Below, piece by piece: positions 50,801-53,800 of a stretch of 64,000 nt of DNA. Made by a program: the position numbers. Every line of letters begins with the position of its first letter. Within the stretch, counting starts at the first letter, position 1. The stretch lies in NCBI RefSeq assembly GCF_013315695.1, contig NZ_CP054353.1, one strand, 5' to 3'. Source of the DNA: Escherichia coli. GTDB lineage: Bacteria > Pseudomonadota > Gammaproteobacteria > Enterobacterales > Enterobacteriaceae.

Positions 50801-53800
50801 GGCGTTATATCGCTAAAGAGATTTTAAGCCGCCTGAAAGAGCTTAAATTACTGGAGGCGTATGGTCTCGATGAACTGACCGGGCCCTTTGAAAGCATTGT
50901 TGAGATGTCATGCCTGATGCACGATATCGGCAATCCGCCGTTTGGTCATTTTGGCGAAGCGGCGATAAATGACTGGTTTCGCCAGCGTTTGCACCCGGAA
51001 GATGCCGAAAGCCAGCCTCTGACTGACGATCGCTGCAGCGTGGCAGCACTACGTTTACGGGACGGGGAAGAACCGCTTAACGAGCTGCGGCGCAAAATAC
51101 GTCAGGACTTATGTCATTTTGAGGGGAATGCACAAGGCATTCGTCTGGTGCATACATTGATGCGGATGAATCTCACCTGGGCACAGGTTGGCGGTATTTT
51201 AAAATATACTCGTCCGGCGTGGTGGCGTGGTGAAACGCCTGAGACACATCACTATTTAATGAAAAAGCCGGGTTATTATCTTTCTGAGGAAGCCTATATT
51301 GCCCGGTTGCGTAAAGAACTTAATTTGGCGCTTTACAGTCGTTTTCCATTAACGTGGATTATGGAAGCTGCCGACGACATCTCCTATTGTGTGGCAGATC
51401 TTGAAGATGCGGTAGAGAAAAGAATATTTACCGTTGAGCAGCTTTATCATCATTTGCACGAAGCGTGGGGCCAGCATGAGAAAGGTTCGCTCTTTTCGCT
51501 GGTGGTTGAAAATGCCTGGGAAAAATCACGCTCAAATAGTTTAAGCCGCAGTACGGAAGATCAGTTTTTTATGTATTTAAGGGTAAACACTCTAAATAAA
51601 CTGGTACCCTACGCGGCACAACGATTTATTGATAATCTGCCTGCGATTTTCGCCGGAACGTTTAATCATGCATTATTGGAAGATGCCAGCGAATGCAGCG
51701 ATCTTCTTAAGCTTTATAAAAATGTCGCTGTAAAACATGTGTTTAGCCATCCAGATGTCGAGCAGCTTGAATTGCAGGGCTATCGGGTCATTAGCGGATT
51801 ATTAGAGATTTATCGCCCTTTATTAAGCCTGTCGTTATCAGACTTTACTGAACTGGTAGAAAAAGAACGGGTGAGACGTTTCCCTATTGAATCGCGCTTA
51901 TTCCACAAACTCTCGACGCGCCATCGACTGGCCTATGTCGAGGCTGTCAGTAAATTACCGTCAGATTCTCCTGAGTTTCCGCTATGGGAATATTATTACC
52001 GTTGCCGCCTGCTGCAGGATTATATCAGCGGTATGACCGACCTCTATGCGTGGGATGAATACCGACGTCTGATGGCCGTAGAACAATAACCAGGCTTTTG
52101 TAAAGACGAACAATAAATTTTTACCTTTTGCAGAAACTTTAGTTCGGAACTTCGCGCTATAAAACGAATCTGAAGAACACAGCAATTTTGCGTTATCTGT
52201 TAATCGAGACTGAAATACATGAAAAAAACCACATTAGCACTGAGTGCACTGGCTCTGAGTTTAGGTTTGGCGTTATCTCCGCTCTCTGCAACGGCGGCTG
52301 AGACTTCTTCAGCAACGACAGCCCAGCAGATGCCAAGCCTTGCACCGATGCTCGAAAAGGTGATGCCTTCAGTGGTCAGCATTAACGTAGAAGGTAGCAC
52401 AACCGTTAATACGCCGCGTATGCCGCGTAATTTCCAGCAGTTCTTCGGTGATGATTCTCCGTTCTGCCAGGAAGGTTCTCCGTTCCAGAGTTCTCCGTTC
52501 TGCCAGGGTGGCCAGGGCGGTAATGGTGGCGGCCAGCAACAGAAATTCATGGCGCTGGGTTCCGGCGTCATCATTGATGCCGATAAAGGCTATGTCGTCA
52601 CCAACAACCACGTTGTTGATAACGCGACGGTGATTAAAGTCCAACTGAGCGATGGTCGTAAGTTCGACGCGAAGATGGTTGGCAAAGATCCGCGCTCTGA
52701 TATCGCGCTGATCCAGATCCAGAACCCGAAAAACCTGACCGCAATTAAGATGGCGGATTCTGATGCGCTGCGCGTGGGTGATTACACCGTAGCAATTGGT
52801 AACCCGTTCGGCCTGGGCGAGACAGTAACTTCCGGGATTGTCTCTGCGCTGGGACGTAGCGGCCTGAACGCTGAAAACTACGAAAACTTCATCCAGACCG
52901 ATGCAGCGATCAACCGGGGTAACTCAGGTGGTGCGTTGGTTAACCTGAACGGCGAACTGATTGGTATCAACACCGCGATTCTCGCACCGGACGGCGGAAA
53001 CATCGGTATCGGTTTTGCTATCCCGAGCAACATGGTGAAAAACCTGACCTCGCAGATGGTGGAATACGGCCAGGTGAAACGTGGTGAGTTGGGTATTATG
53101 GGCACTGAGCTGAACTCCGATCTGGCGAAAGCGATGAAAGTTGACGCCCAGCGCGGTGCTTTCGTAAGCCAGGTTCTGCCGAATTCTTCCGCCGCGAAAG
53201 CGGGTATTAAAGCGGGTGATGTGATCACCTCACTGAACGGTAAGCCAATCAGCAGCTTTGCCGCACTGCGTGCTCAGGTGGGCACTATGCCGGTAGGTAG
53301 CAAACTGACCCTGGGCTTACTGCGCGACGGGAAGCAGGTTAACGTGAACCTGGAACTTCAGCAGAGCAGCCAGAATCAGGTTGATTCCAGCACCATCTTC
53401 AACGGCATTGAAGGCGCTGAGATGAGCAACAAAGGCAAAGATCAGGGCGTGGTGGTGAACAACGTGAAAACGGGCACTCCGGCTGCGCAGATCGGCCTGA
53501 AGAAAGGTGATGTGATTATTGGCGCGAACCAGCAGGCAGTGAAAAACATCGCTGAACTGCGTAAAGTTCTCGACAGCAAACCGTCTGTGCTGGCACTGAA
53601 CATTCAGCGCGGCGACAGCACCATCTACCTGTTAATGCAGTAATCTCCCTCAACCCCTTCCTGAAAACGGGAAGGGGTTCTCCTTACAATCTGTGAACTT
53701 CACCACAACTCCATACATCTTCATCATCCTTTGGGCATTTGCACAATGCCGTACGTTACGTACTTCCTTATGCTAAGCCGTGCATAATGGAGGACTTATG

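What the first reader, a model, noticed from the sequence alone, without database searches (positions are those of the whole stretch)
52146..52173. Exact-consensus sigma-E promoter in front of degP
GGAACTT, a 16-nt spacer, then TCTGA sits about 45 bp upstream of the degP start, matching the envelope-stress sigma factor consensus at both elements and the spacing. This fits degP being a core RpoE/Cpx regulon member and shows the regulatory architecture is intact.
Basis: partly seen in the sequence, partly recalled or inferred. Interest (0 to 1): 0.2.

Follow-up and report, generated by a model that had tools for sequence, protein, structure and literature searches.

The report
Known sigma-E promoter of degP
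This is the well-known envelope-stress (sigma-E) promoter of the E. coli periplasmic protease gene degP, present in its usual form; it is real and functional but ordinary and already fully described.

Summary
GGAACTT (52146-52152), a 16-nt spacer and TCTGA (52169-52173) lie 45 nt upstream of the degP ATG (52219). It is the only exact match in the window; none appeared in 100 shuffles.

The window is E. coli chromosome (dgt-degP-cdaR). The dgt-degP intergenic region matches K-12 MG1655 except for two adjacent spacer bases (52154-55). The window carries the major E. coli allele (4,024 of 5,424 genomes), which is also the ancestral one.

Two published genome-wide datasets place the K-12 degP transcription start at 180844, which is window 52179. 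That is an A, 5 nt after TCTGA and 26 nt after GGAACTT, the geometry preferred by sigma-E.

Both elements are about 97% conserved across 77 distinct Enterobacteriaceae upstream sequences. Two GTAAA pentamers that fit the CpxR consensus are invariant. The 40-nt leader is the Rfam HtrA RNA thermometer.

One caveat: "exact consensus" holds for the -35 element and the spacing only. TCTGA matches 3 of 5 positions of the 28-promoter consensus TCAAA.

Verdict: a real promoter, already known, of low interest. A minor side lead is a sigma-70-type -10 hexamer embedded in the spacer, which coincides with a second start site in Salmonella and Klebsiella and is degenerate in E. coli.

The parts
52146..52152 (+). 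-35 element GGAACTT of the sigma-E promoter (positions -33 to -27 relative to the start site)
   Evidence: Matches the Rhodius 2006 -35 core GGAACTT in 7 of 7 positions. GAACT is invariant, G52146 is 94% and T52152 is 83% conserved in 77 Enterobacteriaceae sequences.
52153..52168 (+). 16-nt spacer CGCGCTATAAAACGAA. It contains the E. coli dimorphic dinucleotide 52154-55 (GC here, AG in K-12) and an embedded sigma-70 -10-like hexamer TAAAAC at 52160-65.
   Evidence: A 16-nt spacer is the strongly preferred sigma-E spacing. Dimorphism. The spacer is unusually conserved, with ATAAA at 52159-63 at 90-100%.
52169..52173 (+). -10 element TCTGA
   Evidence: TCT is 99%, G 86% and A 100% conserved. Matches 3 of 5 positions of the Rhodius core TCAAA.
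52174..52178 (+). 5-nt discriminator AGAAC
   Evidence: A 5- or 6-nt discriminator is preferred by sigma-E promoters. Sequence conservation is poor, with mean identity 0.51.
52179..52179 (+). Transcription start site (A), equivalent to K-12 coordinate 180844
   Evidence: Kim 2012 Table S1: degP TSS 180844 with a 40-nt UTR. Cappable-seq: TSS 180844 with score 41.6. The coordinate offset of 128665 follows from the dgt and degP coordinates. It is also position 1 of the Rfam HtrA thermometer model.
52179..52224 (+). 40-nt 5' leader plus the first two codons, forming the HtrA fourU RNA thermometer (UUUU at 52186-89 pairs with the Shine-Dalgarno GAGA at 52206-09)
   Evidence: Rfam RF02700, 77 bits against a gathering score of 52, full-length match 1-46. 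Described for Salmonella in PMC5602114.
52219..53643 (+). degP (htrA) coding sequence, 474 aa
   Evidence: ORF. RefSeq annotates 'serine endoprotease DegP' under 100%-identical matches.
52100..52117 (+). CpxR-type tandem box GTAAA-N8-ATAAA (9 of 10 positions of GTAAA-N4-8-GTAAA), at -79 to -62
   Evidence: Scan. Consensus from PMC6298763. GTAAA at 52100-04 is invariant in 77 sequences and ATAAA has mean identity 0.94. CpxR binding at this site was not tested here.
52120..52124 (-). Inverted GTAAA pentamer (TTTAC on the + strand), at -59 to -55
   Evidence: Invariant in 77 sequences. Assigning it to CpxR is an inference from the consensus.
52116..52145 (+). A/T-rich 30 nt directly upstream of the -35 element (22 of 30 bases are A or T), an UP-element-like region
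   Evidence: Sequence. Rhodius 2006 describes a 30-nt A/T-rich window upstream of sigma-E -35 elements.
50572..52089 (+). dgt coding sequence upstream (context). No terminator-like site lies between dgt and degP.

Best explanation
The motif is the canonical sigma-E (RpoE) promoter of E. coli degP/htrA.

Shown here:
- The sequence and its geometry.
- Its identity to K-12.
- Its conservation across Enterobacteriaceae.
- The match of its leader to the Rfam HtrA thermometer.

Taken from published data: the mapped K-12 start site and the 56-fold induction of degP when sigma-E is overproduced.

Established knowledge of the pathway, not tested here: unfolded outer-membrane proteins trigger degradation of the anti-sigma factor RseA by DegS and RseP. 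This frees sigma-E.

Inferred mechanism at this site: RNA polymerase carrying sigma-E binds GGAACTT (52146-52152) and TCTGA (52169-52173) across the optimal 16-nt spacer. It starts transcription at A52179.

Upstream, conserved GTAAA pentamers at -79 to -55 are the likely binding sites for phosphorylated CpxR, which adds Cpx-pathway input. This is inferred from the consensus and conservation only.

The 40-nt leader is the HtrA fourU RNA thermometer. It occludes the Shine-Dalgarno sequence at low temperature, adding translational heat control. This was shown experimentally for Salmonella and is inferred for E. coli.
For: - Exact and unique motif: 1 match in the window and 0 of 100 shuffles with any match.
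- The dgt-degP intergenic region equals K-12 except at 52154-55.
- The 89 bp at 52130-52218 are identical in 4,024 of 5,424 complete E. coli genomes, and the K-12 allele is found in 1,383.
- The two rare variants that were inspected change leader bases only, not the promoter elements.
- The K-12 start at 180844 equals window 52179, by TSS profiling and by Cappable-seq, where its score of 41.6 is the dominant start in the region.
- The geometry matches sigma-E preferences: 16-nt spacer, 5-nt discriminator, 26 nt from the -35 element to +1, a purine at +1, and an A/T-rich upstream region.
- In 77 distinct Enterobacteriaceae upstream sequences the -35 element has mean identity 0.967 and the -10 element 0.964, against 0.58 at dgt third-codon positions.
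- A relaxed form of the motif is present in 77 of 77 sequences and the exact form in 46 of 77.
[quoted passage not shown]
Against: - No experiment was done on this strain.
- The -10 element is not the majority sigma-E -10 (3 of 5 positions of TCAAA).
- The spacer is more conserved than sigma-E recognition is known to require, which hints at an overlapping function.
- CpxR overproduction alone did not induce degP in one study, so how Cpx input is integrated at this promoter is not settled by anything examined here.
Confidence: 0.95

Rival explanations
1. An overlapping sigma-70-type promoter contributes materially to degP transcription in E. coli. Its -10 hexamer lies inside the sigma-E spacer (TATAAA at 52158-63 or TAAAAC at 52160-65). 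It would be activated by CpxR bound upstream and would start near 52172.
For: - K. pneumoniae has a second degP start at the G of TCTGA, 6 nt after TAAAAT.
- Salmonella has a 47-nt-leader start at the homologous base.
- The spacer block ATAAA is 90-100% conserved.
- From my recollection of Danese et al. 1995, Cpx induction of degP is only partly dependent on sigma-E.
Against: - E. coli has C rather than T at the -7 position of the hexamer (52165).
- Neither K-12 TSS dataset lists a start at 180836-180838.
- There is no recognisable -35 element, and the sigma-70 consensus scan found 0 sites in 51800-52300.
- Neither dataset was collected under Cpx-inducing conditions, so absence of this start under those conditions is not shown.
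Confidence: 0.12
2. The motif is a chance match, and degP is transcribed from elsewhere, for example by read-through from dgt or from the weak start inside dgt.
For: - No terminator-like site lies between dgt and degP.
- A weak Cappable-seq start exists at K-12 180669, which is window 52004, inside dgt.
- Relaxed sigma-E-like matches occur at chance frequency in the window.
Against: - The exact motif is unique, with no match in any shuffle.
- The dominant mapped start lies 5 nt downstream of the -10 element, with score 41.6 against 1.8 for the start inside dgt.
- Both elements are about 97% conserved while neighbouring wobble positions are 58% conserved.
Confidence: 0.02

Closest known systems
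E. coli K-12 degP (htrA) sigma-E promoter, TSS at 180844
   Same: The -35 element, -10 element, spacing, discriminator, start site, leader and upstream GTAAA pentamers are all identical. The whole intergenic region differs at only 2 of 129 bases.
   Different: Spacer bases 52154-55 are GC here and AG in K-12. The window allele is the commoner one in E. coli (74% against 25.5%). It is also the one shared with other Escherichia species, Salmonella and Citrobacter.
Salmonella enterica htrAp3 (sigma-E-dependent, 40-nt leader) with the HtrA fourU thermometer
   Same: Same GGAACTT-N16-TCTGA motif, same 40-nt leader length, and the same thermometer family RF02700.
   Different: Salmonella also uses a start 7 nt upstream (47-nt leader), and its spacer reads TAAAAT where E. 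coli has TAAAAC. In E. coli the thermometer has an A-C mismatch at model pair 7-32.
Generic E. coli sigma-E promoter motif (Rhodius et al. 2006: GGAACTTTT - 16 nt - (T/C)GGTCAAAA)
   Same: The -35 core matches 7 of 7, the spacer is 16 nt, the discriminator is 5 nt, the -35-to-+1 distance is 26 nt, +1 is a purine, and the upstream region is A/T-rich.
   Different: The -10 core matches 3 of 5 (TCTGA against TCAAA). The three bases upstream of TC are GAA rather than (T/C)GG. The extended -35 reads CG rather than TT.
CpxR-activated promoters (consensus GTAAA-N4-8-GTAAA)
   Same: GTAAA-N8-ATAAA matches 9 of 10 positions at 52100-52117, and an inverted GTAAA lies at 52120-24. Both perfect pentamers are invariant across 77 sequences.
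   Different: This promoter is read by sigma-E holoenzyme rather than sigma-70. CpxR binding was not tested here, and CpxR overproduction alone did not induce degP in one study.

Membership tests
Sigma-E (RpoE) dependent promoter, E. coli type | -35 element GGAACTT | tested here: met
   Matches 7 of 7 at 52146-52152. Consensus taken.
Sigma-E (RpoE) dependent promoter, E. coli type | -10 element TCAAA (with conserved TC and terminal A) | tested here: inconclusive
   TCTGA matches 3 of 5. The T, the C and the final A are present, and the two middle positions differ from the majority. The position weight matrix of Rhodius 2006 was not available, so the element could not be scored.
Sigma-E (RpoE) dependent promoter, E. 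coli type | Spacer of 15-19 nt (16 preferred), discriminator of 5 or 6 nt, and 25-28 nt from -35 to +1 | tested here: met
   The values are 16 nt, 5 nt and 26 nt, using the mapped start at 52179.
Sigma-E (RpoE) dependent promoter, E. coli type | Transcription start mapped at the predicted position, with a purine at +1 | tested here: met
   Published K-12 TSS at 180844 equals A52179 in two datasets. This was transferred to the window by sequence identity and was not measured in this strain.
Sigma-E (RpoE) dependent promoter, E. coli type | Transcription depends on and is induced by sigma-E | not testable with these tools
   Literature only: 56-fold induction on sigma-E overproduction and membership of the core regulon.
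Sigma-E (RpoE) dependent promoter, E. coli type | Conservation of the promoter upstream of orthologues in related genomes | tested here: met
   A relaxed form of the motif is present in 77 of 77 distinct Enterobacteriaceae sequences. Mean identity of the elements is about 0.97, against 0.58 at wobble sites.
CpxR-regulated promoter | CpxR box GTAAA-N4-8-GTAAA upstream of the promoter | tested here: met
   Matches 9 of 10 at 52100-52117 with N8, plus an inverted perfect pentamer at 52120-24. Both perfect pentamers are invariant.
CpxR-regulated promoter | Binding of phosphorylated CpxR and Cpx-dependent induction | not testable with these tools
   Reviews cite Danese 1995 and Pogliano 1997. One study found no induction from CpxR overproduction alone.
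HtrA 5' UTR thermometer (Rfam RF02700) | Score at or above the family's gathering threshold with a full-length match | tested here: met
   77 bits against a threshold of 52, model positions 1-46 of 46, at 52179-52224.
HtrA 5' UTR thermometer (Rfam RF02700) | Temperature-dependent opening of the Shine-Dalgarno sequence | not testable with these tools
   The predicted fold at 37 C is weak (-3 kcal/mol, z-score 0.95). This is expected for a thermometer but proves nothing. The experiments were done on the Salmonella sequence.

The most novel reading that the evidence does not exclude
In many Enterobacteriaceae the strongly conserved spacer of the degP sigma-E promoter may double as the -10 hexamer of an overlapping sigma-70-type promoter. 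The hexamer TAAAAT is found in 25 of 77 sequences, including Salmonella and Klebsiella. Both of those genera have a second start at the G of TCTGA. E. coli reads TAAAAC, so a single T-to-C change at the -7 position may have disabled this second promoter. That would leave degP transcription dependent on sigma-E in E. coli but not in Salmonella. This is an inference from sequence and published start sites. It may already be implicit in Lewis et al. 2009, which I could not read.
Probability: 0.35. Interest if true: 0.3.

Novelty: already known. Interest (0 to 1): 0.07.

Why it matters
It matters little beyond annotation. The result confirms that this strain carries the standard, intact envelope-stress control region of degP: the sigma-E promoter, CpxR-type boxes and the leader thermometer. 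The promoter has been known since the late 1980s and is a textbook reporter of sigma-E activity. The comparison did yield two small points. The K-12 spacer allele is a derived minority variant. A sigma-70-like -10 hexamer inside the spacer tracks with the second degP start site seen in Salmonella and Klebsiella but not in E. coli.

Tried and rejected
- Relaxed motif scans of the window gave chance-level counts, so they add nothing on specificity.
- The sigma-70 and terminator consensus scan of 51800-52300 found nothing.
- Folding the leader alone gave a weak, non-significant structure. The Rfam covariance model, not the thermodynamic fold, identified the thermometer.
- Several literature routes failed:
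  - The original mapping paper (Lipinska 1988) was not held, by PubMed id or by PMC id PMC338836.
  - My guessed PMC id for Mutalik 2009, a paper on sigma-E promoter strengths, was not held.
  - Rhodius 2006 has no supplements held as text, and its Table 1 is not in the text.
  - Full-text searches for a statement of the older GGAACTT/TCTGA consensus returned only irrelevant primer matches.
  The claim that TCTGA was the earlier consensus therefore rests on my memory.
- I considered whether the two-base spacer difference from K-12 could be functionally meaningful. It lies outside both core elements, neither allele matches the weak extended -35 preference (TT), and both alleles are common. I rejected it as a finding.

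Full report
**1. Observation**

Reading the window shows GGAACTT at 52146-52152, the 16-nt spacer CGCGCTATAAAACGAA at 52153-52168 and TCTGA at 52169-52173 on the + strand. The exact pattern GGAACTT-N16-TCTGA occurs once in the 64-kb window on both strands, and 0 of 100 dinucleotide-preserving shuffles contained a match.

Relaxed patterns are uninformative. With up to 2 mismatches there are 2 hits against 3.7 expected. With a 6-of-7 -35 element, N15-17 and TCNNA there are 7 hits against 7.2 expected.

**2. What the locus is**

A 221-bp query around the site matches 5,424 of 5,426 complete E. coli genomes, and RefSeq annotates dgt and degP under the match. The window is therefore E. coli chromosome, with dgt at 50572-52089 and degP at 52219-53643.

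Alignment with K-12 MG1655 shows the dgt-degP intergenic region is identical except for two adjacent spacer bases, 52154-55 (GC in the window, AG in K-12). Window coordinate plus 128665 gives the K-12 coordinate.

The 89 bp at 52130-52218 are identical to the window in 4,024 of 5,424 genomes and identical to K-12 in 1,383, which leaves about 17 genomes with other variants. The two rare variants I inspected change leader bases only. The window allele is also the one found in other Escherichia species, Salmonella and Citrobacter. The K-12 allele is therefore the derived one.

**3. Does transcription start where the motif predicts?**

Kim et al. 2012 (PMC3415461, Table S1) list a single E. coli MG1655 degP start at 180844 with a 40-nt leader. 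The flanking sequence they give ends in ...GGAACTTCAGGCTATAAAACGAATCTGAAGAACA. Cappable-seq (Ettwiller et al. 2016, PMC4782308) lists the same position with a score of 41.6. Its nearest upstream + strand start is a weak one at 180669 (score 1.8), and it lists none at 180836-180838.

K-12 180844 corresponds to window 52179. This is an A, 5 nt after TCTGA and 26 nt after GGAACTT. Rhodius et al. 2006 (PMC1312014) derived the sigma-E preferences from 28 mapped promoters:
- a -35 motif GGAACTTTT (core GGAACTT);
- a -10 motif (T/C)GGTCAAAA (core TCAAA);
- a strongly preferred 16-nt spacer;
- a 5- or 6-nt discriminator;
- 26 or 27 nt from the -35 element to +1;
- a purine at +1;
- a 30-nt A/T-rich stretch upstream of the -35 element.

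The site meets every geometric criterion, and 22 of the 30 bases at 52116-52145 are A or T.

The -10 core matches only 3 of 5 positions (TCTGA against TCAAA). "Exact consensus" is therefore right for the -35 element and the spacing, and wrong for the -10 element when measured against this consensus. From my own recollection, which I could not confirm in the held literature, TCTGA was the earlier "consensus". It was drawn from very few promoters, including degP itself.

**4. Dependence on sigma-E and Cpx (literature only)**

degP was the most strongly induced gene on sigma-E overproduction, at 56.3-fold (Bury-Mone et al. 2009, PMC2731931). It is in the core sigma-E regulon conserved across related genomes. 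degP is a recognised Cpx target (review PMC6737893). However, CpxR overproduction alone did not induce it in one study, which the authors attributed to limiting sigma-E.

**5. Conservation**

One scan of genome contigs with the DegP protein returned 80 Enterobacteriaceae loci. I aligned 77 distinct upstream sequences.
- The -35 element has mean identity 0.967: GAACT is invariant, and the variants seen are GGAACTA and TGAACTT.
- The -10 element has mean identity 0.964, with variants TCTTA and TCTCA.
- Third-codon positions at the end of dgt have mean identity 0.58, and the first 8 nt after the dgt stop 0.49.
- The exact motif is present in 46 of 77 sequences and a relaxed form in 77 of 77.

Upstream, TTGTAAAGA (52098-52106), CAATA (52111-15) and TTTAC (52120-24) are invariant. 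Against the CpxR consensus GTAAA-N4-8-GTAAA (PMC6298763), GTAAA-N8-ATAAA at 52100-52117 scores 9 of 10. TTTAC is an inverted perfect pentamer. These lie at -79 to -55 relative to the start. Assigning them to CpxR is an inference, because binding was not tested.

**6. The leader**

Rfam RF02700 (HtrA 5' UTR thermometer) matches 52179-52224 at 77 bits against a gathering score of 52, full length. Model position 1 falls exactly on the mapped start. The four U residues at 52186-89 pair with the Shine-Dalgarno GAGA at 52206-09. E. coli has an A-C mismatch at one outer pair.

The thermometer was characterised in Salmonella (PMC5602114). The E. coli leader alone folds weakly, as expected for such an element. 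The sigma-E promoter thus drives an mRNA whose whole leader is a second, translational heat sensor.

**7. An unexplained detail and a side lead**

The spacer is more conserved than sigma-E recognition is known to need. G52156 is 99% conserved, ATAAA at 52159-63 is 90-100%, and the spacer mean is 0.81.

In Salmonella and Klebsiella the spacer reads TATAAAATGA, which contains TAAAAT. K. pneumoniae has a second degP start at the G of TCTGA, 6 nt after that hexamer. Salmonella has a 47-nt-leader start at the homologous base. That is the geometry of a sigma-70 -10 element.

E. coli reads TAAAAC, lacking the -7 T, and shows no start there. The sigma-70 scan found nothing. This offers a one-base explanation for why E. 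coli uses one proximal degP promoter and Salmonella two. But ATAAA is also conserved in taxa with C at that position, so the explanation is incomplete.

**8. Comparison and verdict**

This is the K-12 degP/htrA sigma-E promoter in its commonest E. coli allele. It corresponds to the start that gives the 40-nt leader in Salmonella, which I recall is htrAp3. All testable defining features of a sigma-E promoter are met except an exact majority -10 element. Sigma-E dependence and CpxR binding rest on the literature. The feature is real, functional and already known, and its interest is low.

Noticed in passing
window 52179-52224 (+): The whole degP 5' leader matches Rfam RF02700, the HtrA fourU RNA thermometer (77 bits against a threshold of 52). 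The match starts exactly at the sigma-E start site. E. coli carries an A-C mismatch at one stem pair (52185/52210) relative to the family consensus.
   Followed up: partly
window 52158-52172 (+); L014, L076 and other loci: A sigma-70 -10-like hexamer lies inside the sigma-E spacer. It reads TAAAAT in 25 of 77 Enterobacteriaceae sequences and TAAAAC in E. coli. Klebsiella and Salmonella have a second degP start at the G of TCTGA, and E. coli does not. Conservation of the spacer is not fully explained.
   Followed up: partly
window 52154-52155: Two adjacent spacer bases are dimorphic in E. coli. GC (the window allele, which is ancestral) is found in 4,024 genomes and AG (K-12, BL21) in 1,383 of 5,424. 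The pattern looks like a single dinucleotide substitution event.
   Followed up: partly
window 52004 (+), inside dgt: A weak Cappable-seq start in K-12 at 180669 (score 1.8) would give a 215-nt degP leader, the same length as the leader from Salmonella htrAp1. No terminator-like site lies between dgt and degP.
   Followed up: no
window 53106-53107 (+), inside degP: Both K-12 TSS datasets list a start at 181771/181772 within the degP coding region, about 690 nt upstream of cdaR. Kim 2012 assigns it to cdaR.
   Followed up: no
L002 2248-2945 (strain 2017-19-1CC); insertion point equivalent to about window 52087: One E. coli genome has an IS1 inserted between the dgt stop codon and the degP control region. 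The GTAAA boxes and the sigma-E promoter remain intact.
   Followed up: partly
window 32381-32353 (-): A second perfect GGAACTT with N17 and TCTTA lies near the 3' end of a 234-aa ORF (32327-33031, - strand), upstream of the next minus-strand ORF (31694-32167). Going by K-12 coordinates from memory, these look like sfsA and dksA, but I did not verify that. Relaxed sigma-E-like matches occur at chance level in the window, so this may mean nothing.
   Followed up: no
window 60347-60433 (+): Rfam RF00127 t44 sRNA, 83.5 bits, a known element.
   Followed up: no
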